Origin: Chloroflexota bacterium
GTDB lineage: Bacteria > Chloroflexota > Dehalococcoidia > Lucifugimonadales > JADFKI01
Direction of reading: 5' to 3'
Assembly: GCA_009840355.1 (NCBI GenBank)
Contig: VXNZ01000050.1
Span: 33,099 to 97,098 of the forward strand
Length of the DNA stretch: 64,000 nucleotides
Every line of letters begins with the position of its first letter. The first letter of the stretch is position 1. The translations under genes and the position numbers were made by a program. Below the pieces are notes generated by a model that had not been told where the DNA came from, did no database searches, and was given only the letters and a program-made list of their open reading frames with translations. This document shows, one piece after another, positions 8,201 to 56,714 of the stretch.

Positions 8201-9412
8201 TTACAGCCCTGCCGCTTTGCGGAGTTTGTCTGCCTTGTCCGTGCGCTCCCAGGGCAGCTCCAAGTCGTCGCGGCCGAAGTGCCCATAGGTCGAGGTCTGC
8301 TTATACAGCGGGCGGCGCAACTGCAGGTCGCGGATGATGCCGCCGGGCGTCAGGTCGAAGTTCGCCGCTACTAGCGCTTCTATCTTGTCATCCGCTATCT
8401 TGCCGCTGCCGAATGTTTCGATGGAAATGGATGTTGGCTCGCGCTTGCCGATGGCGTATGACACGATGACTTCCATCCTGTCCGCGAGACCGGCTGCGAC
8501 CACATTCTTGGCGACATAGCGCGCCGCATACGCTGCGGAGCGGTCAACCTTCGTCGGGTCTTTGCCGGAGAACGCGCCGCCGCCATGCCGCGCGAAACCG
8601 CCGTATGTGTCCACCAGAATCTTGCGTCCTGTCAAGCCCGTGTCGCCGACGGGACCGCCGGTTACGAACCGCCCGGATGGGTTAATCCAATACTGTGTGT
8701 CGTCGTCGAGCAGCTCGGCGGGGATGATTGCCTTGGCAGCATGCTCTATGAGGTCGCGCGATATTGTCTCCTGGCTCACATCTTCGCTGTGCTGCGTGCT
8801 CATCACGACCGTATGGATGCGCTTTGGAACGCCATAAGCGTACTCGACCGTAACCTGCGACTTGCCATCGGGACGCAGATACGGCAGTGTGCCATCCTTG
8901 CGCAGCTGCGCCATTCGCTGGCAGAGCTTATGTGACAGGGAAATGGGCAGCGGCATCAATTCGGGCGTCTCGTTGCAGGCGAAGCCGACCATCATGCCCT
9001 GGTCGCCCGCGCCGACAGCCTCTAGGTCGTCGTAGTCGCCCGCCTCGCCGCGCAGTTCGATAGCGGTGTCAACGCCGTGCTGGATGTCCGGCGACTGCTC
9101 GTGCACCGATATGGCGACGCCGCAGGACTGGTAGTCGAAGCCGTAAGTGGAATCGATATATCCGGCGTCTCGGATGGTGTCGCGGACGATGGTGGCAATG
9201 TCCACATAGGTCTCGGTGGTGATTTCCCCCATGACGACGACCAAGCCGGTGGTGGTGCAGACCTCGCAGGCAACGCGCGCCTTCGGGTCGTCCGCGATAA
9301 TCGCGTCTAGCACCGCGTCCGAAATTTGGTCGCAGAGTTTATCAGGGTGCCCCTCCGTAACCGATTCGGAAGTGAACAGGTACGAAGGGGAGTCGGTAAA
9401 GGTATGGCTCAA
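8201..9412 (-). CDS. metK: S-adenosylmethionine synthetase
   Basis: [30 protein letters not shown] and [19 protein letters not shown] start at 9412-9410 preceded by CAGGAG. Confidence 0.95.
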
Positions 9413-9809: not shown

Positions 9810-11683
<1,874 letters not shown>

Positions 11684-12886: not shown

Positions 12887-13240
12887 CTATTCGTCCGCCC
12901 CGTAGCTAGTAGGCTTGCCGGCTTCGATCCATGCAGGCGTGCCCTCTTCGATGTTGTACAGGCGCTCGGAGTCGAAGCCCATCGCGGCTGCCATCTCGGC
13001 GGCGAGTCCGCTGCGCACGCCGATAGCGCAGATGAACAGCAGGTTCTTGTCTTCTGGCAGCTCGTCTATGCGCCCTAGCAGGGTGTCCACATGGATGAAG
13101 AGCGCGCCTTTGACATGGCCATCGGCGTATTCGTCGAGCGCGCGCACATCCACGACGACGGAATCGCCGGATGCCTGCATTTCCTCTGCCTCGTCGATGC
13201 TGATGCGGTAATATGGCTCGCCCGGGTTCTTGGTAGGCAT
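12887..13240 (-). CDS. Single-domain rhodanese-like sulfurtransferase
   Basis: Active-site loop FICAIGVRS (C-x4-R). 117 aa. GGAGG RBS upstream. Confidence 0.85.
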   Translation of the reverse strand: MPTKNPGEPYYRISIDEAEEMQASGDSVVVDVRALDEYADGHVKGALFIHVDTLLGRIDELPEDKNLLFICAIGVRSGLAAEMAAAMGFDSERLYNIEEGTPAWIEAGKPTSYGADE

Positions 13241-13352: not shown

Positions 13353-13469
13353 CTCTCATCTCCGAGCCGTCATAGGCTCTCCGGAATTAGCACCGATTCA
13401 CGCGCCGCAAGACGCGAAAAGGTTGCCGGGCTTCACAGGGCCGGTCCCTCAGCCACTCTTGATAAGAGA
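13353..13469 (-). promoter_or_regulatory. SAM-I (S-box) riboswitch aptamer
   Basis: Minus strand: CTCTTATCAAGAGTGGCTGAGGGACCGGCCCTGTGAAGCCCGGCAACC...GGTGCTAATTCCGGAGAGCC...GGCTCGGAGATGAGAG. This matches the conserved S-box blocks (CUUAUCAAGAG, GAGGGAC-GGCCC, UGAA-CCCGGCAACC, GGUGCUAAUUCC, AGAUGAGAG) and has P1 pairing. Confidence 0.9.
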
Positions 13470-43083: not shown

Positions 43084-43875
43084 ATGGCGGCTAGACCTGG
43101 TTTTCGTAGATGGACACGCGAAGAAACCATCATAGTGTTCAACCTGTACTGCCAGATTCCATTCAAGGACTCCAACAAGTCCCATCCAGATGTTCAACGA
43201 TTTGCTAAATTGGTCAATCGTTCCCCCTCTGCCGTCAACATGAAAATCGGGAACTTTGGCAGCTTCGACCCGGAATTGAAGAAACGCGGCATAACAGGAC
43301 TTCGCAACGCATCTCGCTTAGACAGACAAATATGGGACGAGTTTCACAATGACTGGCAGACGCTCATTGAGGAGAGTGAGCGACTAATCGCAGAAAAAGA
43401 GAAAACACTTGACGATGCCCCTGCGGTTGACCCTGTCCCTGAGAATAAGGAGTTGCCCGAAAGATTGGGTGGGGAAAGGCTGGCCGTTCGCAGAGTCAGG
43501 GAAAATCAGCCGTTCTTCCGTAAGGCGATATTATCTGCCTATGAAAGTGAATGCTGTATCACCGGCATTGACATAGAGACTCTGTTAGTCGCAAGCCATA
43601 TTAAGCCCTGGGCGGAATCCGACAGCACCGAAAAACTAAATCCGCAAAATGGATTGTGCTTGAACGCCCTGCATGACCGCGCGTTTGACAGGGGACTAAT
43701 CACCGTCGCGGACGATTACACCATTATGGTCAGTGAGCAAGTTTCGCGTTCAACAAACGACGCTGTGCGTGATTTGTTGTTGACATACGAGGGGCGACAA
43801 ATCAAACTCCCAAGCCGATTTGTTCCCCGTACCGACTTTATCCAATGGCATAGGAACAATGTTTTCGCGCACTGA
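43084..43875 (+). CDS. HNH endonuclease (HNH_2-type, restriction-endonuclease-like)
   Basis: C-terminal ASHIKPW...NGLCLNALHDRAFDRGLI is the HNH_2 core. N-terminal domain WTREETIIVFNLYCQIPF...SPSAVNMKIGNF. AT-richer than the flanks. Confidence 0.8.
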   Translation: MAARPGFRRWTREETIIVFNLYCQIPFKDSNKSHPDVQRFAKLVNRSPSAVNMKIGNFGSFDPELKKRGITGLRNASRLDRQIWDEFHNDWQTLIEESERLIAEKEKTLDDAPAVDPVPENKELPERLGGERLAVRRVRENQPFFRKAILSAYESECCITGIDIETLLVASHIKPWAESDSTEKLNPQNGLCLNALHDRAFDRGLITVADDYTIMVSEQVSRSTNDAVRDLLLTYEGRQIKLPSRFVPRTDFIQWHRNNVFAH

Positions 43876-43987
43876 TAAGTGCCTCATAATGTGCATTAAT
43901 ATCCTTTATGCAATTAGAGTTTTTGTGCTATATTAGCCAGAGGAAAATGGTCATGTATGTGAAGGGCTTGAGGCATAGGAGCACTGG

Positions 43988-45652
43988 ATGGACTGGCATA
44001 TCCCCACAACCACTGGGCAATCCACGACAGTAAGCCTAACCACTGGAGAGCCGCTACTTATAGTTGGACCCAACGGATCTGGTAAGTCGGCATTGCTACA
44101 ACAGTTCATTTCGTCGCATCCTAATGAGAATATCAAGCGTATCACGGCATATCGGCAGACATGGCTTGAATCAGGAAGTGTTGACTTGACTCCTGCAAGA
44201 CGTAAAGGACTCGACGATCAGATCAGAAACTACGAGCGTCAAGCAGAATCTTTATGGAAGGAAGGCGCAAACTATTATGGTTATGGAGTCCAACATTCTG
44301 CAATCCTATTCGATCTGGTCGCAAGTGAAAATATGCGCGCACGAGCAATCACCCGTCAAGTTGATGAAGAAAATATAGATGGGGCGAAAGAACTGTCCCG
44401 ATCATCAGTGTCTGCACTCAGCCAACTCAATGATCTAATACGACTCGGAAACTTAGCGGTTAAAATCGAGATTTCTGATGATGATACCGAGATACTGGCT
44501 TTACATCAGAATGCCAACGCACCATTTAGTATTTCCCAAATGTCGGATGGCGAACGTAATGCAGTCTTGATTGCAGCACAAGTGCTTACCGTCGAAGATG
44601 GAACTATACTACTGATTGACGAACCCGAGCGTCATCTTCACAGGTCCATCACTGAGCCATTCCTGTCAGCCCTATTTGAACGGCGCACTGATTGTACATT
44701 CGTCGTATCGACACACGAAATAGCCCTGCCAATCGCTCATCCAAATGCGCAAGTGATAATAACTCGGTCGTGTCAATGGAACGGCAATGCCCCTAGTTCT
44801 TGGGATATAGATGTACTTGAAAGGGATACAGATTTACCAGAGGACATCAAACGGTCAATCCTAGGGTCAAGAAAGAGGATGCTCTTTATAGAGGGCAAAC
44901 AAGACAGTTTGGATATTCGACTTTACCAGCAATTGTTCCCGGACGTTACAGTGATTCCAATAGGAACTTGTGATGATGTCCAGAGAGCAGTCAGTGGTCT
45001 AAGGAAAACACAATCCCTTAATGATGTTGAAGCGTTCGGTCTGATAGACAGGGACAACCGAACGGAAGAAAACATTGAGAAACTCGCAGATGACTATGTG
45101 TATGTTCTTGACGCTTACTCAGTTGAATCGCTCTACTATTGCTCGGAAGCTATCAGAGCAGTCGCCAAACGACAGGCGGAGACCTTGAATACAGACGCCG
45201 AAGCAATGAATGCTTCGGCAACAACCCGCGCACTCAATGTCGTTGGCCATCAAGATGTTGTCGAAAGAATGGCTAAGAAATTGTGTGTCCGCAAGATACG
45301 AAGCTCGCTACTGTCCAAAGTCCCAGACTGGAATTCCATTGGAGCAAGTGAGGATTTGGCAGTCACAATCCCATCATCCTGCGATTACAAGAATGAATTG
45401 TCCCATTACCAAAAATTAGTCGCACAGAGAAAATTGGATATCATCGTCGCTCGTTATCCCATCCGAGAATCGGCGGCTTTTGGTGAAATTGTAAAATCAC
45501 TTCGGTTCAAGGATCGAAAAGACTATGAGAAAGCGGTCATCGCGCTAATTCGGAAGGATAAGGAATTGGCCGACGCCATCAAATATCGTATCGAGCCTCT
45601 TGCTGATGCTCTTGCGAATTCGGTACCACACCTTCCAATATCTTCAGCATGA
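43988..45652 (+). CDS. ABC-type ATPase fused to a DUF4435/TOPRIM-like domain (OLD/PARIS AriA-AriB-like single protein)
   Basis: Walker A GPNGSGKSA, signature-like MSDGERN, Walker B ILLIDEPERHLH and H-loop VVSTHE. Then RMLFIEGKQDSLDIRLY...GLIDRDNRTEE...SVESLYY, which fits the DUF4435 E...DxD TOPRIM-like pattern as I remember it. Confidence 0.65.
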   Translation: MDWHIPTTTGQSTTVSLTTGEPLLIVGPNGSGKSALLQQFISSHPNENIKRITAYRQTWLESGSVDLTPARRKGLDDQIRNYERQAESLWKEGANYYGYGVQHSAILFDLVASENMRARAITRQVDEENIDGAKELSRSSVSALSQLNDLIRLGNLAVKIEISDDDTEILALHQNANAPFSISQMSDGERNAVLIAAQVLTVEDGTILLIDEPERHLHRSITEPFLSALFERRTDCTFVVSTHEIALPIAHPNAQVIITRSCQWNGNAPSSWDIDVLERDTDLPEDIKRSILGSRKRMLFIEGKQDSLDIRLYQQLFPDVTVIPIGTCDDVQRAVSGLRKTQSLNDVEAFGLIDRDNRTEENIEKLADDYVYVLDAYSVESLYYCSEAIRAVAKRQAETLNTDAEAMNASATTRALNVVGHQDVVERMAKKLCVRKIRSSLLSKVPDWNSIGASEDLAVTIPSSCDYKNELSHYQKLVAQRKLDIIVARYPIRESAAFGEIVKSLRFKDRKDYEKAVIALIRKDKELADAIKYRIEPLADALANSVPHLPISSA

Positions 45653-45909: not shown

Positions 45910-46230
45910 ATGCTTAAGAAGGTAAGAGCAAGATACTCCGAAGGCTCGCTCACGCCGCTCACGCCGCTCGACCTGTCCGAAGGCGAAATCGTGTCGCTGA
46001 CCGTCGAGGTGGAATCGAAACTCTCTAAGGAAGAGCGTGCCGAGAAAGTGAAGCCTGCTGCGGACGTGTGGACAGAACAAGAAGACCTCGAAAGAATCAG
46101 GCGCGCAGTGAACGGTCCTAAGCTTTCTACAGATGAGTGGCTTGAAAAGGTACGCAAGCGCAGAGTTGCGTCCCGAACGCGGATTACGGCAGATGAAATC
46201 ATTGAAATGCGCGACGCGGACCGCACATGA
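45910..46230 (+). CDS. Antitoxin (DUF104/AF2212-like N-terminus) of the VapBC-type pair
   Basis: RYSEGSLTPLTPLDLSEGEIVSLTVE matches the DUF104 pattern. The stop overlaps the vapC start by 4 nt. Confidence 0.6.
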   Translation: MLKKVRARYSEGSLTPLTPLDLSEGEIVSLTVEVESKLSKEERAEKVKPAADVWTEQEDLERIRRAVNGPKLSTDEWLEKVRKRRVASRTRITADEIIEMRDADRT

Positions 46231-46622
46231 CTGCCGTCGCCGATTCTTCCGCGCTGGTCGCGTCTGTGGTGGACCACGGCAGCGACACTAGATGGGTAGA
46301 TGCCGCCTTTGCAGGCGAAGACTTAGCTTGTCCGGAACTGGCGCTTGCGGAAGCCAGCAACATCTTGCGTCGGATGGAACTCGCCGGGCAACTATCGTAC
46401 ACAGAAGCGACGGCTGCCTATACTGAACTGTTCGATATCGACATTGTTCTGTATCCCTTCACCCCATTCGCCGAGCGGATATGGCAGTTGCGGAATAATC
46501 TGACAATCTACGACGCATGGTTTGTTGCGTTGGCAGAGGCACTCGATTGCCCGCTTGTTACACTTGACCGCAGGCTCAGTCGTGCGCCAGGTCCAACCTG
46601 CGCTATCTTATCCCCTGACTAA
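46227..46622 (+). CDS. vapC: PIN-domain toxin
   Basis: N-terminal acidic residue context AVADSSALV, later YDAWFVALAE and LVTLDRRL (PIN conserved Asp positions). Confidence 0.8.
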   Translation: MTAVADSSALVASVVDHGSDTRWVDAAFAGEDLACPELALAEASNILRRMELAGQLSYTEATAAYTELFDIDIVLYPFTPFAERIWQLRNNLTIYDAWFVALAEALDCPLVTLDRRLSRAPGPTCAILSPD

Positions 46623-50158: not shown

Positions 50159-50488
50159 ATGATTGAAGTCATCGCATACACTGACCACAGAGGGCGCAAT
50201 CCCTTTCGGCGCTGGCACGACAGGCTGGATAGCATCGCGGCAAATAGAATAGAGTCGGCTTTGTTTCAGATGCGGGCGGGAAACTTATCCAATGCTAGAA
50301 GCGTCGGGCGCGGCGTATCGGAATACCGTATTAACTTCGGACCCGGATACAGAATCTACTTCGGCAGAGACGGCGACACACTAATCATCCTGCTCGGTGG
50401 CGGCACAAAGAGCCGCCAGCATAGAGATATTCAGAACGCTCATACTCTTTGGCGAGAGTACAGACATAACAAGCGGCGAGAGGCTTAA
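50159..50488 (+). CDS. RelE/ParE-superfamily addiction-module killer protein (Gp49-like)
   Basis: RNPFRRWHDRLD...GRGVSEYRINFGPGYRIYFGRDGDTLIILLGGGTKSRQHRDI, the typical pattern. Confidence 0.8.
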   Translation: MIEVIAYTDHRGRNPFRRWHDRLDSIAANRIESALFQMRAGNLSNARSVGRGVSEYRINFGPGYRIYFGRDGDTLIILLGGGTKSRQHRDIQNAHTLWREYRHNKRREA

Positions 50489-50490
50489 AC

Positions 50491-50874
50491 ATGGCTAACA
50501 AGCTTGGCATACCCATTGACGACATTTTCCGGGAACGCGCGCAATGGGACCCTGTATATCGTGCAATGATGCTCCCAAGCGCAATCGACCTTCTTCTCTC
50601 CGATGATGTCAGAGTCGGGAAAATCGCACTACACTCTTGCATCTACTCCACCATCGGCTACGAAAAGCTTGGCGAGCTTATGGGCAAGACGCCCGACGAC
50701 ATCAAGCGCATGTGCCATCCCGACCACGACACAAGCGTGAACGACCTCTTCGACATAATCAAGCATATCCGGCAGCACGAAGGCATTCGCCTCGAAGTAA
50801 AGGGATGCTCTAGCGAGCAGGACTGCGAATCCGTTGCTCACGACGAGCCTGCCGAAACTGTCGCTGCTACATAA
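50491..50874 (+). CDS. Putative addiction-module antidote protein (HTH)
   Basis: Position 3 nt after the killer gene. IGYEKLGELMGKTPDDIKRM is HTH-like and is followed by GIRLEV. Moderate resemblance only. Confidence 0.55.
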   Translation: MANKLGIPIDDIFRERAQWDPVYRAMMLPSAIDLLLSDDVRVGKIALHSCIYSTIGYEKLGELMGKTPDDIKRMCHPDHDTSVNDLFDIIKHIRQHEGIRLEVKGCSSEQDCESVAHDEPAETVAAT

Positions 50875-50963: not shown

Positions 50964-51467
50964 ATGAACCTCTACATACTCAGGCACGGCATCGCTGCCG
51001 ACCGCGATAGCCGCGAATACCCGGACGACGATTTGCGTCCTCTTACCGGCAGGGGCATTGACCGCATGCGCCGCCAAGTTGCGGGGATGAACGCCATTGG
51101 CATCGCTCCGGATGTGCTTATCGCCAGCCCGCTCGTGCGCGCCGCGCAGACGGCTGACATTGTGCGGCAAGGATTGGAATCGCCGCCGCGTATGGTGTCG
51201 TCCATTGCCCTTGTGCCTGAAGCGCACCCGAGCGCGATTCTTCACGACATTGCCACGCATCACTCCGCCGTTGCCGATGTGATGGTCGTCGGGCACGAGC
51301 CGCACCTTAGCAACCTTGTCGCCTTTGCGCTCACCGGCAGCGTCGCTGACATCGTCAAGCTCAAGAAAGGCGCGCTCTGCAAACTGTCGATTGACCCCGC
51401 GAACACGCCGGAACGCGCCCGCCTGCTATGGGCGCTGACGCCGCGCCAGATATTGAAAATGGCATAA
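50964..51467 (+). CDS. sixA: Phosphohistidine phosphatase SixA-like (histidine phosphatase superfamily)
   Basis: MNLYILRHGIA (RHG motif), SPLVRAAQTA and GHEPHLS. The start is moved to 50964 because the upstream codons belong to the REP element. Confidence 0.8.
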   Translation: MNLYILRHGIAADRDSREYPDDDLRPLTGRGIDRMRRQVAGMNAIGIAPDVLIASPLVRAAQTADIVRQGLESPPRMVSSIALVPEAHPSAILHDIATHHSAVADVMVVGHEPHLSNLVAFALTGSVADIVKLKKGALCKLSIDPANTPERARLLWALTPRQILKMA

Positions 51468-51552
51468 TCGACGCGGCAGAGTATAATCACTCGCAGATAC
51501 TGTCTGATAGGATTGACGCGACCGAAGTGAGATACGCAAAGGGAGGTTCGTT

Positions 51553-51996
51553 ATGACGGAACTGAGTCTGGCTTACGCCGTGCGGAGTTACAGCACCGGC
51601 ACGCTTGGGCGCGCGATATGCAACGCGCGCAACCATCACTGGGTCGCCGACGACTCCGGCGGCGAGGAAATTGGCGCAGGTGAGCTATTCCTCGGCGGCA
51701 TATCGGCATGCGCGGTCAATATGATCGAGCGCGTCGCGCAAGAGGAAGAGCGCCCGCTCGAATGGATGGACGTCAGCGTCGAGGCGTACCGCGACCCGAA
51801 CCCGCCGCCGTCGGACAGGCTGGTGTACGACGACATCCGCATCCACTTCAAGATGTGGGGCGTGAGCGACGAAGACGGCGAAGCGCTGGTGGACACATGG
51901 AAACGCCGTTGACCGCTCTACGGTTCGGTTGCGGTCGCAACCCCAAGCACATCAGTAACGGCAGAGTTCAGCGCAGACCCGCACCCACGGAGTTAG
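51553..51996 (+). CDS. OsmC/Ohr-family protein, candidate selenoprotein (in-frame TGA at 51910-51912 read as Sec). Alternatively a nonsense-truncated gene ending at 51912.
   Basis: The first conserved Cys is at residue 53 (GGISACAVNM). The TGA is codon 120 and is followed in frame by PLYGSVAVATPSTSVTAEFSADPHPRS and a TAG, which reconstitutes the family C-P motif spacing and a ~147-aa length. A hairpin lies 14 nt downstream. Confidence 0.55.
51927..51942 (+). promoter_or_regulatory. SECIS-like hairpin
   Basis: GGTTGC-GGTC-GCAACC: a perfect 6-bp stem with a GGUC loop starting 14 nt after the TGA codon. It resembles the apical part of the E. coli fdhF SECIS as I recall it (GGUUGCA-GGUCU-GCACC). 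Confidence 0.5.
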
Positions 51997-52045
51997 AAGC
52001 GAACAGCAGAAAGGTACGCCAGCAAGAGCCTTGGGCGAGCGCATA

Positions 52046-52435
52046 TCAGAGCCTCAGGCCTCTGTATTCGTCCGATAGCCTGCCGTTTGGCGAGAGGAAC
52101 TTGGCGAAGGGACGCGGTTCGTTCGTGTCAACTCCTTCGAGAGTTTCCCACACCCTAAGCAAGGTAAGCAGAACTCTGGGAGGGCGTTCTTCGCCGGTCG
52201 TCAGGAATATGATGCCAATACCTGCATCTACGATCGCCTGGCGCTCGGTAGAAATAAGTAGCATCTTCTTGTTGCAGCTAAGAACCAGCATCCCAAGGCT
52301 TCCGGCCAAAGCCAGCCACTCCACATCGGGCATGCCTCCCCATCCTTGCCTCACAAGCGCCCTTGCGTCATATCCAACAGCAGTTAAAGCGATGGGAACT
52401 CCGGTGCCTATATCCTCATCGCAGAGAAGTATCAC
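52046..52435 (-). CDS. DUF5615-like PIN-like putative toxin
   Basis: ILLCDEDIGTGVP...GYDA...DVEWLALAG...LVLSCNKKM resembles the DUF5615 layout. Overlaps the upstream DUF433 gene by 4 nt. Confidence 0.5.
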   Translation of the reverse strand: MILLCDEDIGTGVPIALTAVGYDARALVRQGWGGMPDVEWLALAGSLGMLVLSCNKKMLLISTERQAIVDAGIGIIFLTTGEERPPRVLLTLLRVWETLEGVDTNEPRPFAKFLSPNGRLSDEYRGLRL

Positions 52436-53112
52436 GCTGCAATTCCGTCCCCATACTGCAACACAGTTTCCACGACATCGGCTTCCATCTCCAAATCTTC
52501 GGCGATGAATCCAATCTTGTTACCCGCGCGCCAACGCTTGAAGACGGCGTTCACGCTGATTCCTCTGCCTTTGATAGTAGGGATGCCAGAGCTAATACGC
52601 GGGTCGATTACGATGGGATACTCTTTGCCTAAGGGGAACCATTTCGCCGCAAGTTCATCTTCGTACTCGACTTGGAGAATTGTGTCGATGATAAGCCCGG
52701 GCAAGGACCACTGCGCCGGGTTGTCAAACGCTTGCAGGCTGCCTCCAATATCTTCGCCTTCAAGCCGAGCGATGATATGTCCCCCCAGCGACTCCAATTT
52801 CAGATGAGCAAAGGGATACTCGACTTTCAAGATTTCCGCGGCGTTCCGATAGGCGGCATGCACATCACGATAACGCGCATTGTCAACCATTCTGAATCGC
52901 GCGGCAACGACTGTTTCCATTAGCTGAAGGTAGGACAGCATTGACCCACCGGCGACACCTCCGGGGAACAACGGAGGCACAGCGCCTTTGGCTTTCGTTG
53001 AGTATCCAAGGAACCAGTTTTTGACGGTGGTCGTTGACACATTGGCGAGGCGCGCGGCTTCAACGAAGCTATACATCGGTTGGGTTCGCCATTTGTCGGC
53101 AATGGCAGTCAT
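52432..53112 (-). CDS. HTH + DUF433 domain putative antitoxin
   Basis: N-terminal YSFVEAARLANVSTTTVKNWF (HTH). C-terminal SSGIPTIKGRGISVNAVFKRWRAGNKIGFIAEDLEMEADVVETVLQY (DUF433 pattern). Confidence 0.6.
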   Translation of the reverse strand: MTAIADKWRTQPMYSFVEAARLANVSTTTVKNWFLGYSTKAKGAVPPLFPGGVAGGSMLSYLQLMETVVAARFRMVDNARYRDVHAAYRNAAEILKVEYPFAHLKLESLGGHIIARLEGEDIGGSLQAFDNPAQWSLPGLIIDTILQVEYEDELAAKWFPLGKEYPIVIDPRISSGIPTIKGRGISVNAVFKRWRAGNKIGFIAEDLEMEADVVETVLQYGDGIAA

Positions 53113-53219: not shown

Positions 53220-53639
53220 TTACCCCCGCGCCATGAAGACAAACCGGAAATCCGCGCCTACGCAGTTTGCGCCGCGTGTCTTGCGAGCGCCGATGTTGTC
53301 CACGCTTAGCAGGTGGCCATAGTCCACGGCACCGTCCCAGCTTGGGTCGGTGTTCGCTGCCGCCTCGATGCTGCGCGCGCCCTGCGGCTCTACCAGCGCG
53401 TCTAGCATCGCTTCTGCCTGCCGCGCGTCCGCCGCCGAAACTAGCACTTCCACGCGCATGCTCCCCCTGACCGCGCCGCCAAGCGTCTCCACCGACTCGC
53501 GCGATTCCAGACGCACAATTGCCGCCGGGAATTCGTGCACGCTGTCCGGCGCGTGGTCGAATACCCGCAGCCCGTCTATGTTCGACAGAACAGACGCCAG
53601 CCCCCGCTTCGCTACACCGATTTCGTTCGCCATCACCAT
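53220..53639 (-). CDS. Phage-like hypothetical protein (possible head-tail joining/tail-completion, DUF3168-like)
   Basis: Position downstream of the connector gene. The VFDHAPDSVHEFPAAIV pattern is reminiscent of DUF3168. Weak. Confidence 0.35.
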   Translation of the reverse strand: MVMANEIGVAKRGLASVLSNIDGLRVFDHAPDSVHEFPAAIVRLESRESVETLGGAVRGSMRVEVLVSAADARQAEAMLDALVEPQGARSIEAAANTDPSWDGAVDYGHLLSVDNIGARKTRGANCVGADFRFVFMARG

Positions 53640-53674: not shown

Positions 53675-54508
53675 TTAATAGACACCAAGCGCGGGCTTGC
53701 GGTAGGCGCCTAGCAGCAAGCCGATGTCGGAGTCCATGCCGATTTCGCTTGTTTGCCAGTCGTCCACGCCGCCGCGCGCTCCGTGCCAAAGGCGCACCGC
53801 GAGCAGCAACGCAGCCTCGCCCACGGGCGGCGGATATTCATAGATGTCTATCGGCGCGTTTTGCGCTATCGATGCCGCCGTCGTGCCGTTCACTCCGCGC
53901 CGCACTGCCATCGTATCGCCGTCGCGCGCCAGCACATATATCTGCTCGCTGCCAATCAGCAGCGTGTTGCCCGCGCCAACTTCGGCACTCCCACTTACGG
54001 CAGCGGACAGCAAGATAGTCGCAGTATCGGCACCGGCGTTTGCGCCCACGACACGCGATATGCGCCGCAGATGCTGCCACCAACCCCATACGCCTTCGAC
54101 CTCAACATTGCCGCGACCGGCCGGGAATATCGCCCTGCCGATCGCCGCGCCGGTGGCAAGCAGCCGCGTGTATGGACGCGAATACGGATTGCCCGCCGAT
54201 GCCGGATCCGCGTCGTAGGGCAGCAGGTCGTAGTCGGCCGCGCTCCATGGCGTCGCCGGTCCTCTGATGCCGCCATAAATCCGCACGCCGTCCACGCTCA
54301 CGAGATCCGGCACGCCGATAGTCGTTTCGCCGCTTCCGTCCAGCCGTATCGTCGCCCGCCGCGCGTAAAAGTGCCGGTTGCACCAGCGATCTATCGCGCC
54401 GCTCGCCGCCTCTGCCAGCGCCAGCAGCCTGTCATCATTCGCCGTCCCGGTGATGTTCAGCGCGGACGGACTTTTCAGCGCGTCCGGCGTTATGTATGCA
54501 TGTGTCAT
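53675..54508 (-). CDS. Phage head-tail connector (gp6-like) domain protein with long C-terminal extension
   Basis: MTHAYITPDALKS...DDRLLALAEAASGAIDRWCNRHF matches the gp6-like connector N-terminus. The start is set at MTHAY because the upstream codons are dispersed-repeat sequence. Confidence 0.5.
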   Translation of the reverse strand: MTHAYITPDALKSPSALNITGTANDDRLLALAEAASGAIDRWCNRHFYARRATIRLDGSGETTIGVPDLVSVDGVRIYGGIRGPATPWSAADYDLLPYDADPASAGNPYSRPYTRLLATGAAIGRAIFPAGRGNVEVEGVWGWWQHLRRISRVVGANAGADTATILLSAAVSGSAEVGAGNTLLIGSEQIYVLARDGDTMAVRRGVNGTTAASIAQNAPIDIYEYPPPVGEAALLLAVRLWHGARGGVDDWQTSEIGMDSDIGLLLGAYRKPALGVY

Positions 54509-54599
54509 AGAACAATCCTTCAAGCAAACATGGATGTACAAGATGGAAGGGATATATCCTGTCCATCCCCTCCATCCCATGTCCCATGTCGGTCTGGTG

Positions 54600-56075
54600 T
54601 TACGCTAGGTCGATGTTGTATTGCAAGCCTGTGTGCGTCGCCGTGCCGCGCGATCCGCTGCGCTCCGCCAGCGCGTGCCGGAAGCTCACCGTCACGACCG
54701 TCTGGCGTTTCTGCGTGTCGCGGTCAACGTCTATCATCAGCTGCCGGCGGAAGCCCTGCGCCCACTGCGTGCGGTTCACCAGCAGCAGACGACCCTTTGT
54801 GTTCGTCGCCGCGCCGTCCGTAATCTTGCCGTCCGCGTCCGCGAGCGCCATCTGCTCGGACACGATGACCGGTATGCCCTCGACCGCGCCCAGCATGCCC
54901 GTAAGCAGCGTGGCGTTCGGTCCGAGCTTGTCCATCGTCCTGAACTGCTCCACCGACTGCGCGCGGATGAAAGTGTTCACATCCATAACCCACGCCAACT
55001 GCGACGGGCGCGCGCCGTACTTGCCCAGCTTCGTCCGCAGCTCGTTGAACATATCATCCGACACGGCTGCGTTGTGATTGTTCGCCTGCGATGTGTTGTC
55101 CACCAGCGGCAGATGAATGATGCCGTCGTAGCCCACCAGCCAGTGCGCCTTGCCCGAAGTGCTCGCCGAAATCGTCGCGCCGTCCGTGTTGATGCCGTTC
55201 GTCTTGGTTCTGTCCGCATTCAGGATGATGTCGTCCAGTACCTCCGCGACATTGCGCACCAGACTAGCGCGAATCTCCGGCAGCATCGCGATAACGCCGT
55301 CCTCTTCCAGCGTGAAACTGTACGGCACCTGCCCGACAAGCTCGAACGCGGTCAGCGTTGTCCTGCCGGTGGCGAGCGCGGTGTCCGTGCTCGCCGTGTT
55401 CTCCGTGCCGGGGAAGAAGTTCACATCGCCGAGCTGACGCGGCACTTCAAACGGGTTAGACGGCATCGGGAATGTCGGCACGAGCGGCGCGACAAGCGTC
55501 TGCAAGTTCACATCCTGCCACAGTTCGCGCGCTTCGAGCGTTGCCACCAGTTCGTCGCCGCTGCCTGCGGTCGTGCTGTCCATCGCCGCGCGTGTCATTG
55601 CGCCCAGCAGCTGACGGCTGAAGCCCTGAAACTGCCCGGTGTCTTTCGAGTCCACGCTGAACCAGCGTTCGAGCTGCCGCTCCGCCGCCGTGTGCGACGC
55701 CTGTATGTCCGATGACGTGATACTCGCCGCAAGCAGCCGCTTCGCCTCTTCCGCGCGCTCGATCCAAGCGGGACCGAAGCCTTCGCGCCGCTGCGAATGC
55801 GCGAACCGCCGCACCAGCGCCAAATCCAGAATGTCCATGCCCGCGTAAGCGCCCGACGGCACGGTGGGCAGCGCGGCATCCTGCGCGTAGCCGCTCAGCG
55901 CATTGCGCCGGACGCTGCGCTCGCGCTCGACCGCCGAGTTCACCGTCCGCGCGATGCGCTCCGTCTCTTCGCGCAGCAGCCCAATCTCGCCGCTCACCGG
56001 CTCGAACCGCTCGCGCACGAACGAATTGATGTCCGCTAAGTCCTTCTTGATTCCCTGAATGTCCGTAGTCGTCAT
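54600..56075 (-). CDS. HK97-family phage major capsid protein (with N-terminal delta/scaffold-like segment)
   Basis: An internal ATG at 56075 is preceded by GGGAGG. MTTTDIQGIKKDLADINSFVRERFE is a coiled-coil delta-domain-like start. The remaining ~400 aa has the HK97 MCP length and pattern (FPMPSNPFEVPR...GTENTAST...). Confidence 0.75.
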   Translation of the reverse strand: MTTTDIQGIKKDLADINSFVRERFEPVSGEIGLLREETERIARTVNSAVERERSVRRNALSGYAQDAALPTVPSGAYAGMDILDLALVRRFAHSQRREGFGPAWIERAEEAKRLLAASITSSDIQASHTAAERQLERWFSVDSKDTGQFQGFSRQLLGAMTRAAMDSTTAGSGDELVATLEARELWQDVNLQTLVAPLVPTFPMPSNPFEVPRQLGDVNFFPGTENTASTDTALATGRTTLTAFELVGQVPYSFTLEEDGVIAMLPEIRASLVRNVAEVLDDIILNADRTKTNGINTDGATISASTSGKAHWLVGYDGIIHLPLVDNTSQANNHNAAVSDDMFNELRTKLGKYGARPSQLAWVMDVNTFIRAQSVEQFRTMDKLGPNATLLTGMLGAVEGIPVIVSEQMALADADGKITDGAATNTKGRLLLVNRTQWAQGFRRQLMIDVDRDTQKRQTVVTVSFRHALAERSGSRGTATHTGLQYNIDLA

Positions 56076-56714
56076 CCCAATCCTCCCTTTCTCATCCACT
56101 CCGTTAAATCCCTTCCCCCTTGATAGGGGAAGGTTAGGATGGGGGTGATAGTCTTCCCCATCCCATCCATCCATGTCAGTTCCGTCCTCTATCAGCGAAT
56201 CGAGCATTCTCCGGTGAGTCTCGCGCAGCGCGTCCGGGTCTGCCGGCACGGACACGATTGACCATTCCAGCAGTTCCGCCCGCACATCCCGCACGCCGCC
56301 TTGCTTGGCGGGTACGCTCTCCGTGGGCAGCCAGCTTATCGACGCCGCTTGCAGAAAACCCTTGTCCCATGCGTTCCGTATGCGCTGCGCGAACGGGTCG
56401 TCCTCCAGGAACTCGAACTCCGCCACGATACCGCCGTCCTCAGCGCGGCTGATGTTCAGCGTTCTGCCGATGGGCAGCCCGCCGGACGGCGACCGCCCCG
56501 TCGAATCGTGCGCCCACATCACCACCGGATTGCGGCGATAATTGTCGAACCGCAGCCCCGCAAGGTCTATCTCCGGCGCCGTCCGCGCTCTATCGTTCGC
56601 CGCGATGACCACACTGCGCCGAGTGTCGTCCATCGCGTCACGCCGCACGATGCTCATGCTCATCGACCGAATCCTATCTTCCATCCATAACCTCCGTTCT
56701 CTCCGTCCCATCAC
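56076..56714 (-). CDS. HK97-family prohead protease domain. It has no stop codon of its own and the frame continues through repeat DNA into the capsid gene (track ORF 54600..56714).
   Basis: NPVVMWAHD...GLPIGR and EWSIVSVPADPDA, typical of S78/U35 prohead proteases. Residues DMDGWDGEDYHPHPNLPLSRGKG are translated intergenic-type repeats. Confidence 0.7.
56111..56146. repeat. REP-like hairpin element lying in frame between the protease and capsid segments
   Basis: CCTTCCCCC-TTGATA-GGGGAAGGTTAGGATGGGGGTG. Confidence 0.7.

What the first reader, a model, noticed from the sequence alone, without database searches (positions are those of the whole stretch)
51553..51996. In-frame TGA at the second conserved cysteine of an OsmC-family gene, followed by an fdhF-like hairpin: candidate selenocysteine protein
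Seen:
- The ORF stops at TGA 51910-51912 directly after ...DTWKRR.
- The same frame continues without stops as PLYGSVAVATPSTSVTAEFSADPHPRS to a TAG at 51994-51996, giving 147 codons in total.
- The first Cys is residue 53 (GGISACAVNM) and the TGA is codon 120.
- A perfect hairpin GGTTGC-GGTC-GCAACC (51927-51942) starts 14 nt after the TGA.

Known:
- OsmC/Ohr proteins are ~140 aa with two conserved Cys about 65 residues apart. The second sits in a C-P motif some 20-25 residues from the C-terminus.
- Bacterial Sec decoding needs a hairpin shortly 3' of the UGA with G/U in the apical loop. From memory, the E. coli fdhF SECIS apex is GGUUGCA-GGUCU-GCACC.
- I recall OsmC-like selenoproteins from marine metagenome selenoproteome surveys, but I cannot cite details.

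Inference: U-P replaces C-P and the gene encodes a full-length Sec-containing OsmC-like peroxidase or thiol oxidoreductase. The alternative is a simple TGC/TGT to TGA nonsense mutation.
Basis: partly seen in the sequence, partly recalled or inferred. Interest (0 to 1): 0.8.

Follow-up and report, generated by a model that had tools for sequence, protein, structure and literature searches.

The report
Selenocysteine-containing OsmC/Ohr-like protein gene
The "stop" codon in this small antioxidant-type gene very probably encodes the rare amino acid selenocysteine, read with the help of a conserved RNA hairpin just downstream; the full protein is 147 residues, but public databases annotate it as a truncated 119-residue protein.

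Summary
ORF 51553-51996 (+) is an OsmC-superfamily gene (Pfam PF02566). Its in-frame TGA (51910-51912) sits in the column where full-length homologs have the second conserved Cys (WKRR-C-PLYGSVA).

- 132 independent sequences carry TGA there: the window, 80 species-level Dehalococcoidia/SAR202 genomes and 51 metagenome contigs.
- None has a stop in the next 20 codons. Those codons vary mainly at third positions, like the upstream coding sequence.
- All 132 have a perfect 6-bp hairpin with an NGUN loop 14 nt after the TGA. Every variable stem or loop-closing site is a codon third position and changes together with its partner.
- Of 29 TGC/TGT homologs, 25 have a degraded stem. All but two have lost the GU in the loop.
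- The two that keep GU retain the whole hairpin and look like recent Sec-to-Cys switches.
- The hairpin meets the published bacterial SECIS consensus. It closely resembles the apex of E. coli fdhF.

OsmC-like selenoproteins have been known since 2005. This clade fails the curated NCBIfam model for them (12.8 versus 95 bits) and has U-P-L-Y, not UxxT. Sec lies at the position of Ohr's resolving Cys. The Sec machinery genes could not be checked in this genome.

The parts
51459..51487 (+). Promoter-like site (ATGGCA-17 nt-TATAAT) between the upstream His_Phos_1 gene and the OsmC-like gene. Weak, consensus-only evidence.
   Evidence: 1 site found versus 0.3 expected in shuffles
51541..51546 (+). 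Shine-Dalgarno-like GGGAGG, 6 nt before the ATG.
   Evidence: read directly
51553..51996 (+). Full selenoprotein ORF: 119 codons, Sec-TGA, 27 codons, TAG. The product is a 147-aa OsmC/Ohr-superfamily protein.
51709..51711 (+). Codon for Cys53 (TGC). It is invariant across the wider family and aligns with the peroxidatic Cys of Ohr (GYSAC*F).
51910..51912 (+). In-frame TGA, codon 120, read as selenocysteine. It occupies the column of the second conserved Cys (C-P-L-Y-G), which aligns with the resolving Cys of Ohr (VC*PYS).
51927..51942 (+). Bacterial SECIS core: 6-bp stem GGUUGC/GCAACC (51927-51932 with 51937-51942) and loop GGUC (51933-51936). There are 20 nt between the UGA and the loop. It lies inside codons Ser125-Thr130 (S-V-A-V-A-T).
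   Evidence: consensus criteria from PMC13188914
51913..51993 (+). C-terminal 27 codons (PLYGSVAVATPSTSVTAEFSADPHPRS). They are translated only if the UGA is decoded, and they are conserved with third-position-biased variation in all Sec forms.
51994..51996 (+). True stop codon (TAG).

Best explanation
ORF 51553-51996 encodes a 147-residue selenoprotein of the OsmC/Ohr superfamily.

Decoding. During translation, the hairpin at 51927-51942 would be bound by the Sec-specific elongation factor SelB carrying Sec-tRNA(Sec). The hairpin has a 6-bp stem and a GGUC loop, and the loop lies 20 nt 3' of the UGA. SelB would then deliver selenocysteine at UGA codon 120 in place of termination. Translation would continue for 27 more codons to the TAG.

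What is shown:
- the UGA/Cys correspondence with homologs;
- selection on the downstream reading frame;
- selection on the RNA hairpin, independent of the protein sequence;
- agreement with the bacterial SECIS consensus.

What is inferred:
- SelB binding and actual Se incorporation;
- the biochemical role, reasoned as follows.

Proposed chemistry, by homology with Ohr/OsmC. Cys53, with the family-invariant Arg20 and near-invariant Glu44, would be the peroxidatic centre that reduces an organic hydroperoxide. Sec120 sits where Ohr has its resolving Cys. It would attack the Cys53 sulfenic acid to form a selenenylsulfide, which a thiol reductant then reduces. It is equally possible that in this clade Sec120 is itself the primary nucleophile.

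Gene callers using the standard code truncate the protein to 119 aa in the public assemblies checked.
For: 1. Family and fold. Pfam OsmC matches across the TGA. An AlphaFold model of the Cys-form homolog P0005 (pLDDT 79) hits only OsmC/Ohr structures.

2. TGA equals the Cys column. Full-length homologs read WKRRCPLYGSVA where the window reads WKRR-TGA-PLYGSVA.

3. Breadth.
- TGA sits at this column in 80 of 80 genome loci, one per species, mostly Dehalococcoidia/SAR202.
- It is also in 51 of 78 metagenome loci that were retrieved with a Cys-form query.
- Relatives at 31-55% identity also end exactly before this column.

4. The downstream frame is under coding selection.
- No stop occurs in the next 20 codons in 132 sequences.
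- Mean variability at codon positions 1/2/3 is 0.17/0.13/0.39 downstream and 0.17/0.12/0.37 upstream.

5. RNA structure.
- In 67 distinct genome-derived sequences, 100% of cells are paired.
- Three pairs show changes on both sides and none shows a one-sided change.
- No shuffle out of 500 reaches the observed covariation score, and all slid controls collapse.
- Across all 132 sequences there are eight hairpin variants. The outer pair occurs as G-C, C-G, A-U and G-U. All variable sites are third codon positions.

6. Cys-form contrast.
- 27 TGC/TGT homologs have peptide VATAT, so the loop is NACN with no GU.
- Only 2 of those 27 have a perfect stem.
- Mean hairpin energy is -7.7 kcal/mol, against -10.4 for Sec forms.

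7. Two further TGC forms (L167, L168) keep the intact hairpin and VAVAT. L167's nearest relative in the set is the TGA form L078. This shows direct Sec/Cys interchange at this codon.

8. bSECIS consensus (PMC13188914): stem 4-16 bp, loop 3-9 nt with G in its first two positions, N1/N2 pairing, 16-37 nt spacing, MFE <= -7.5 kcal/mol. The window has 6 bp, loop GGUC, 20 nt spacing and -7.8 to -8.9 kcal/mol. The 5' arm and the loop are identical to the E. coli fdhF apex.

9. Not a terminator: no T-run follows and the scan found no terminator-like site.

10. Lineage. Two Dehalococcoidia MAGs are among the ten most selenoprotein-rich bacteria (PMC13326102). SelA and SelB are enriched in sponge-symbiont bins (PMC5649159). 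The exact protein occurs in sponge-associated assemblies.
Against: - No selA, selB, selD or tRNA-Sec is in the 64-kb window or in any held locus, so the decoding machinery is unverified for this genome.
- Only 28 of about 60 window ORFs were run through Pfam.
- There is no experimental evidence of Se incorporation.
- The hairpin alone is not rare in this G+C-rich window, and the extended fold is not significantly stable.
- No Rfam family matches the hairpin.
- Sec at the position of a resolving Cys, rather than a peroxidatic one, is atypical, so the proposed chemistry is uncertain.
- The match of Arg20 and Glu44 to Ohr's catalytic Arg and Glu is by inspection. The profile alignment offsets the Glu by one residue and does not reach the N-terminal region that holds Arg20.
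Confidence: 0.9

Rival explanations
1. The TGA is a simple TGC/TGT-to-TGA nonsense mutation, and the gene is a pseudogene or a strain-specific truncation.
For: TGA differs from TGC by a single base. Public gene calls give 119 aa.
Against: The TGA is present in 132 independent sequences spanning about 65-97% protein identity. More divergent relatives also end at this column. The downstream frame is intact and under codon-periodic constraint. The hairpin shows compensatory changes.
Confidence: 0.01
2. The TGA is a genuine stop. A 119-aa single-Cys OsmC-like protein is the product, and the conserved hairpin is a 3' regulatory or stability element.
For: Single-Cys OsmC-like proteins are conceivable. 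The hairpin begins only 14 nt after the stop.
Against: The 20 codons after the TGA never contain a stop. Their variation is third-position-biased, like coding sequence, also beyond the hairpin. The peptide PLYGSVA.AT is the same as in Cys-form homologs, where it is certainly translated. No T-run or terminator-like site is present.
Confidence: 0.03
3. The UGA is decoded, but not as Sec. Possibilities are near-cognate Trp or Cys read-through stimulated by the hairpin, or Cys delivered by the Sec pathway when selenium is scarce.
For: The Sec machinery is not demonstrated for this genome. Hairpins 3' of stops can stimulate read-through in some systems (my own knowledge).
Against: The column is Cys in homologs. 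The hairpin satisfies the SelB-type SECIS consensus, with an invariant GU in the loop that Cys forms lose. The class is documented as rich in selenoproteins. Other genes in the window end normally at TGA, for example AdoHcyase at 10310-10312, so there is no genome-wide reassignment.
Confidence: 0.05

Closest known systems
Published 'OsmC-like protein' selenoprotein family (Zhang, Fomenko & Gladyshev 2005, PMC1088965; GOS 2008, PMC2398784; reviews PMC9312934 and PMC13188914; NCBIfam NF041052 'OsmC-related (seleno)protein')
   Same: Both belong to Pfam superfamily PF02566. Both are bacterial Sec-UGA genes with a coding-region SECIS. Both occur in marine metagenomes and are presumed thiol/selenol redox proteins.
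   Different: The window protein scores 12.8 bits against NF041052, whose cutoff is 95. The published motif is UxxT and the family is assigned to COG1765/YhfA. Here the motif is U-P-L-Y-G-S/T and the nearest solved structures are Ohr proteins. I could not determine which Cys the published family replaces.
Ohr/OsmC two-Cys organic hydroperoxide reductases (for example P. aeruginosa Ohr 1n2f, Acinetobacter Ohr 9jxc)
   Same: The fold is shared. The two redox residues align: Cys53 with the first Cys of Ohr (SAC-F) and residue 120 with the Cys of Ohr's C-P motif. A family-invariant Arg and a near-invariant Glu precede the first Cys.
   Different: Similarity is only about 16-20% identity and E about 1e-3. 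The protein falls far below the TIGR03561 Ohr cutoff (15 versus 88.85 bits). Sec replaces the Cys that in Ohr is the resolving one; that assignment is from my own knowledge of the Ohr literature. The conserved GRA-x-x-AR-x-HH segment is specific to this family.
E. coli fdhF SECIS
   Same: Both have a hairpin immediately 3' of the Sec-UGA inside the ORF. The 5' arm GGUUGC and the tetraloop GGUC are identical. The spacing from UGA to loop is 18 nt in fdhF and 20 nt here.
   Different: The window hairpin is a perfect 6-bp stem. By my recollection of the literature, fdhF has a bulged U that is absent here. No conserved lower helix exists: a lower stem is predicted in some lineages only. Other lineages of this family use CGUG or AGUU loops.

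Membership tests
Bacterial selenoprotein gene (Sec-UGA plus bSECIS) | The in-frame UGA aligns with Cys in homologs. | tested here: met
   WKRR-[TGA or TGC/TGT]-PLYG
Bacterial selenoprotein gene (Sec-UGA plus bSECIS) | The reading frame downstream of the UGA is conserved as coding sequence. | tested here: met
   0 of 132 sequences have a stop within 20 codons; variation is biased to third positions, as upstream
Bacterial selenoprotein gene (Sec-UGA plus bSECIS) | [quoted passage not shown] | tested here: met
   6 bp, loop GGUC, 20 nt spacing, -7.8 kcal/mol for the 16-nt core and -8.9 with flanks
Bacterial selenoprotein gene (Sec-UGA plus bSECIS) | The hairpin is maintained by selection on RNA structure (covariation). 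| tested here: met
   100% paired; 3 pairs with double changes and no one-sided change among the genome sequences; 0 of 500 shuffles reach the score. Most Cys forms have a degraded stem.
Bacterial selenoprotein gene (Sec-UGA plus bSECIS) | selA, selB, selD and tRNA-Sec are present in the same genome. | not testable with these tools
   None was found in the window or in 168 loci. Class-level support comes from the literature only.
Bacterial selenoprotein gene (Sec-UGA plus bSECIS) | Selenium is demonstrably incorporated into the protein. | not testable with these tools
   Needs 75Se labelling or mass spectrometry.
OsmC/Ohr superfamily (Pfam PF02566) | The Pfam HMM score is above the gathering threshold. 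| tested here: met
   39.2 bits versus 27.5, residues 39-129
OsmC/Ohr superfamily (Pfam PF02566) | OsmC fold. | tested here: met
   the model of Cys-form homolog P0005 (62% identical to the window's closest homolog P0001 in A4) matches 6mjn, 1lql, 2egt, 9jxc and others. The window protein itself was not modelled.
OsmC/Ohr superfamily (Pfam PF02566) | Two conserved redox Cys: the first in the ..AC.. helix, the second in a C-P motif near the C-terminus. | tested here: met
   Cys53 and Sec/Cys120 align with the two Ohr cysteines
OsmC/Ohr superfamily (Pfam PF02566) | Hydroperoxide reductase activity. | not testable with these tools
   Needs a biochemical assay.
NCBIfam NF041052 OsmC-related (seleno)protein / published UxxT OsmC-like selenoprotein | HMM score at or above the curated cutoff (95 bits). 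| tested here: not met
   12.8 bits, E = 0.083
NCBIfam NF041052 OsmC-related (seleno)protein / published UxxT OsmC-like selenoprotein | Redox motif UxxT. | tested here: not met
   the motif is U-P-L/I-Y-G-S/T. Published motif.
Ohr subfamily (TIGR03561) | HMM score at or above the curated cutoff (88.85 bits). | tested here: not met
   15 bits

The most novel reading that the evidence does not exclude
This may be an uncatalogued and widespread selenoprotein family, an independent appearance of Sec within the OsmC superfamily.

- Sec occupies the position of Ohr's resolving Cys rather than the peroxidatic one. That implies a selenenylsulfide-based, or role-swapped, catalytic cycle.
- Sec appears ancestral in the sampled clade. 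At least four Sec-to-Cys reversions are inferred, and two of them are caught with a still-intact SECIS.
- The family is near-universal in the marine and sponge SAR202/Dehalococcoidia genomes retrieved, and common in soil metagenomes. Wherever the gene call was seen, it was truncated.
Probability: 0.45. Interest if true: 0.55.

Novelty: new variant of a known kind. Interest (0 to 1): 0.45.

Why it matters
Practical consequences:
- A protein found in 80 of 80 retrieved Dehalococcoidia/SAR202 species genomes, and in many soil metagenomes, is annotated as a 119-aa fragment. That fragment lacks one redox residue and 27 C-terminal residues.
- Correcting this changes selenoproteome counts and selenium-dependence estimates for an abundant ocean and sponge-symbiont lineage.

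Mechanistic interest:
- A selenol at the Ohr resolving-Cys position, with natural Cys variants available, is a ready-made system for asking what Sec contributes when it is not obviously the primary nucleophile.

Methodological value:
- The locus is a clean example of an RNA structure embedded in coding sequence.
- Every synonymous site in the stem covaries with its partner.
- The loop's GU dictates a Val codon that changes to Thr once Sec is lost.

The general phenomenon is well known: a bacterial selenoprotein with a SECIS, and OsmC-like selenoproteins in marine metagenomes. It is not a surprise to specialists.

Tried and rejected
- Rfam, at gathering threshold over the whole window and in permissive mode on 51850-52050, gave no SECIS or tRNA-Sec hit. 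It found only a SAM riboswitch elsewhere and a chance AsdA match.
- ARAGORN found no tRNA in the window and only two tRNA-Arg in 168 loci.
- Motif scans for SelD (GxGCGCK), the SelA PLP site and GHVDHGKT in all held sequence found nothing.
- Pfam on 28 window ORFs showed no sel genes.
- A scan of the window for other in-frame TGAs flanked by high-GC3 open frames gave only antisense-frame artefacts. The OsmC TGA itself did not pass this scan's thresholds.
- A single-sequence fold of the 71 nt after the TGA was not significant, so I relied on covariation instead.
- Neighbourhood clustering of the 80 genome loci gave no conserved redox partner. The only synteny, in closer relatives, is ileS, a toxin-antitoxin pair and a SixA-like His_Phos_1 gene.
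- I could not establish which Cys is replaced in the published UxxT family. The papers give only the motif, and BSepDB supplements are not held.
- Pseudogene, terminator hairpin and genome-wide UGA reassignment were considered and rejected, as set out under the rival explanations.

Full report
**1. The observation.**
- An ATG at 51553 follows a GGGAGG Shine-Dalgarno-like site.
- The ORF runs 119 codons to ...DTWKRR and then TGA at 51910-51912.
- The same frame continues for 27 codons (PLYGSVAVATPSTSVTAEFSADPHPRS) to TAG at 51994-51996.
- Cys53 (GGISACAVNM) is encoded at 51709-51711.
- The perfect hairpin GGTTGC-GGTC-GCAACC occupies 51927-51942, 14 nt after the TGA.
- Pfam's OsmC model (PF02566) matches residues 39-129, running through the TGA, at 39.2 bits against a cutoff of 27.5.

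Taken alone, the hairpin is not statistically remarkable. The window contains 20 perfect 6-bp/4-nt-loop hairpins per strand, and three on the + strand have an NGTN loop. The 71-nt fold has z = -0.82. The case therefore rests on comparative evidence.

**2. The TGA is in the Cys column, in very many relatives.**
A search with the read-through product returned two kinds of homolog. About 90 of the best 120 proteins cover 78-81% of the query at 69-97% identity, and most of them are exactly 119 aa. About 30 are full length, 144-197 aa at roughly 60-67% identity. In the alignment, the full-length proteins read WKRRCPLYGSVA.AT where the window reads WKRR-TGA-PLYGSVAVAT.

I then fetched DNA from two collections.
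- In a collection with one genome per species, 310 loci encode a relative. The best 80 were kept. Nearly all are Dehalococcoidia, SAR202 or Chloroflexota MAGs, and several are sponge-derived. All 80 have TGA in that column, followed by an open, conserved frame.
- A metagenome scan was deliberately seeded with a Cys-form alignment. It gave 51 TGA forms and 27 TGC/TGT forms.

A profile search of 1.8 billion cluster representatives found 382 clusters at E <= 1e-3. By my reading of the table, roughly 45 of the best 150 end exactly at the residue before this column. An alignment of relatives at 31-55% identity confirms it. Truncated ones stop after ...K.R, and full-length ones continue with CPLYG, CPLYR or CPLFG.

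**3. The downstream codons are translated.**
In 132 TGA-form sequences no stop occurs in the 20 codons after the TGA. Mean variability at codon positions 1/2/3 is 0.17/0.13/0.39 downstream and 0.17/0.12/0.37 upstream. The same periodicity holds beyond the hairpin. This excludes both a pseudogene and a genuine stop.

**4. The hairpin is under selection as RNA.**
I tested 81 genome-derived sequences, 67 of them distinct.
- The six stem pairs and the loop-closing positions are paired in 100% of cells.
- Three pairs show changes on both sides. These are G-C/C-G at the outer pair, U-A/C-G at the fourth pair, and G-C/A-U/C-G at the loop-closing positions.
- No pair shows a one-sided change.
- No shuffle out of 500 reaches the observed covariation score, and sliding the partners by 1-3 columns destroys the signal.

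Across all 132 Sec forms there are eight hairpin variants, all perfect. The metagenome set adds A-U and G-U at the outer pair. Every variable site is a third codon position of the S-V-A-V-A-T peptide, so the protein does not explain the coupling.

The loop is always N-G-U-N, and the GU forms the first two bases of a Val codon. The 27 Cys forms from the metagenome scan instead read V-A-T-A-T, which gives loop NACN. Their synonymous sites drift freely. Only 2 of 27 keep a perfect stem, and mean hairpin energy is -7.7 kcal/mol against -10.4 for Sec forms.

Two other TGC forms (P0005 = L167 and P0099 = L168) keep the intact GGTCGC-CGTG-GCGACC hairpin and VAVAT. L167's nearest relative in the set is the TGA form L078. 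They look like recent Sec-to-Cys switches with a relic SECIS. They show directly that Cys and the UGA-encoded residue are interchangeable at this codon. A rough NJ tree with Fitch parsimony infers Sec at the root of the sampled set and at least four Sec-to-Cys changes. This is indicative only.

**5. Comparison with the SECIS definition.**
The 2026 review of prokaryotic selenoproteomes (PMC13188914) gives this bacterial SECIS model:
- an upper stem of 4-16 bp;
- an apical loop of 3-9 nt with a G in its first two positions, usually followed by G or U, with flanking N1/N2 able to pair;
- 16-37 nt between the UGA and the loop;
- MFE <= -7.5 kcal/mol.

The window element has a 6-bp stem, loop GGUC, 20-nt spacing, and -7.8 kcal/mol for the core or -8.9 with flanks. 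The N1/N2 pairing in the model corresponds to the covarying loop-closing positions.

I verified the E. coli fdhF sequence in 5,419 of 5,426 genomes. It reads TGA-CACGGCCCATC-GGTTGCA-GGTC-TGCACC. The 5' arm GGUUGC and the loop GGUC are the same as in the window.

No intrinsic-terminator-like site is present. No Rfam family matches.

**6. What the protein is.**
- An AlphaFold model of the Cys-form homolog P0005 (pLDDT 79, pTM 0.77) matches only OsmC/Ohr structures.
- A profile of the family finds Ohr proteins as the closest solved relatives at E about 1e-3.
- In that alignment Cys53 aligns with the first Ohr Cys (AC-F). Residue 120 aligns with the Cys of the Ohr C-P motif.
- From established Ohr/OsmC biochemistry (my own knowledge), the first Cys is peroxidatic and the second is resolving.
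- Across the wider family, Arg20, Cys53 and Gly103 are invariant, and Glu44 is nearly so. Cys23 is not conserved.

My inference is an Ohr-like catalytic centre of Arg20, Glu44 and Cys53. Sec120 would be the partner that resolves the Cys53 sulfenic acid into a selenenylsulfide. Alternatively, Sec120 has taken over as the primary nucleophile. This part is inference, not shown.

**7. Relation to what is known.**
OsmC-like selenoproteins were reported from the Sargasso Sea in 2005: three sequences, COG1765, motif UxxT (PMC1088965). They recur in GOS and in later reviews. NCBIfam has a dedicated model, NF041052 'OsmC-related (seleno)protein'.

The window protein scores 12.8 bits against that model, whose cutoff is 95. 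It scores 15 bits against the Ohr model TIGR03561, whose cutoff is 88.85. Its motif is U-P-L-Y, not UxxT. So it works like the known kind, a bacterial Sec-UGA with a SECIS in an OsmC-fold redox protein. It fails the membership tests for the curated family.

I found no paper that describes this clade. Among the sources that name these proteins, the only name given is 'uncharacterized OsmC-like protein'. The identical window protein is called as 119 aa in all six places shown, out of 14 contigs, including NCBI, ENA and Logan assemblies. I could not check BSepDB's family tables, so prior cataloguing cannot be excluded.

**8. The gap.**
The Sec machinery was not found in the window or in any locus held. 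Support is indirect.
- Chloroflexi have selenoproteins and tRNA-Sec.
- Two Dehalococcoidia MAGs are among the ten bacteria with the most selenoprotein genes, at 49 and 46.
- SelA and SelB are enriched in sponge-symbiont bins.
- The conservation pattern itself is hard to explain unless the UGA is decoded.
- Other genes in the window terminate normally at TGA, so the code is not reassigned.

**9. Verdict.**
This is a genuine selenocysteine gene with a textbook-like SECIS that is exceptionally well supported by covariation. It belongs to a distinct, widespread and mis-annotated clade of the OsmC superfamily. Confidence that it encodes Sec is about 0.9. Confidence in the specific peroxidase and selenenylsulfide chemistry is about 0.5-0.6. 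Interest is moderate. The phenomenon is known. The clade, the position of the Sec and the caught-in-the-act Sec-to-Cys conversions are the new parts.

Noticed in passing
window 13353-13468 (-), with genes 12887-13240, 10310-11617, 9810-10313 and 8201-9412 (all -): A SAM (S-box) riboswitch at 76.5 bits sits upstream of a same-strand run of genes. They are a rhodanese-domain protein, S-adenosylhomocysteine hydrolase, a thioesterase-like protein and SAM synthetase (MetK). This looks like a methyl-cycle operon under SAM control.
   Followed up: partly
window 54600-56714 (-), plus 53675-54580 (-) and 53220-53639 (-): A 704-aa protein has an HK97-type Phage_capsid domain (PF05065) in its C-terminal half. 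Two ORFs without Pfam hits follow it. The three are conserved next to the OsmC-like locus in the five strains/assemblies shown that extend that far (L161-L165; cut short in L166). No other phage genes are nearby. It may be a domesticated or remnant capsid gene, or an encapsulin-like shell.
   Followed up: no
window 43084-45652 (+), compared with L161 and L163: A variable island lies between the spermidine synthase gene and ileS. The window and L162 carry an HNH_2 endonuclease and a low-GC3 (0.42) DUF4435/AAA_21 ATPase, which looks like an abortive-infection or OLD-type protein. L161 has an FRG/TPR protein there. L163 has a pentapeptide-repeat protein.
   Followed up: no
window 46227-46622 (+), 50159-50874 (+), 52046-53112 (-): Several toxin-antitoxin-like modules surround the locus: a PIN-domain protein, a small two-gene pair with no Pfam hit, and a PIN_10/DUF433 pair. 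This fits the reported enrichment of toxin-antitoxin systems in sponge symbionts (PMC5649159).
   Followed up: no
L167:581-640 and L168:428-487: Two metagenomic homologs have TGC (Cys) at the Sec column. They still carry the perfect SECIS hairpin GGTCGC-CGTG-GCGACC and the Val that encodes the loop GU. They appear to be very recent Sec-to-Cys conversions.
   Followed up: yes
L062 (NZ_FKIP01000209.1, 5.6 kb): A contig labelled 'Candidatus Entotheonella palauensis' carries a TGA-form gene 74% identical to the window protein, among otherwise Chloroflexota hits. It is possibly a mis-binned Chloroflexota contig from the same sponge, or a horizontal transfer.
   Followed up: no
L029:2461-3360: In one Dehalococcoidia genome the upstream SixA-like His_Phos_1 ORF runs in the same frame, without a stop, into the OsmC-like ORF. 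It could be a fusion or merely an open intergenic stretch.
   Followed up: no
representative proteins P0134, P0158, P0159, P0171, P0198, P0201, P0207, P0215, P0218, P0235, P0253: Proteins of 370-714 aa contain two to four stretches that match this family's profile. They are multi-domain or tandem fusions of the domain and were not examined.
   Followed up: no
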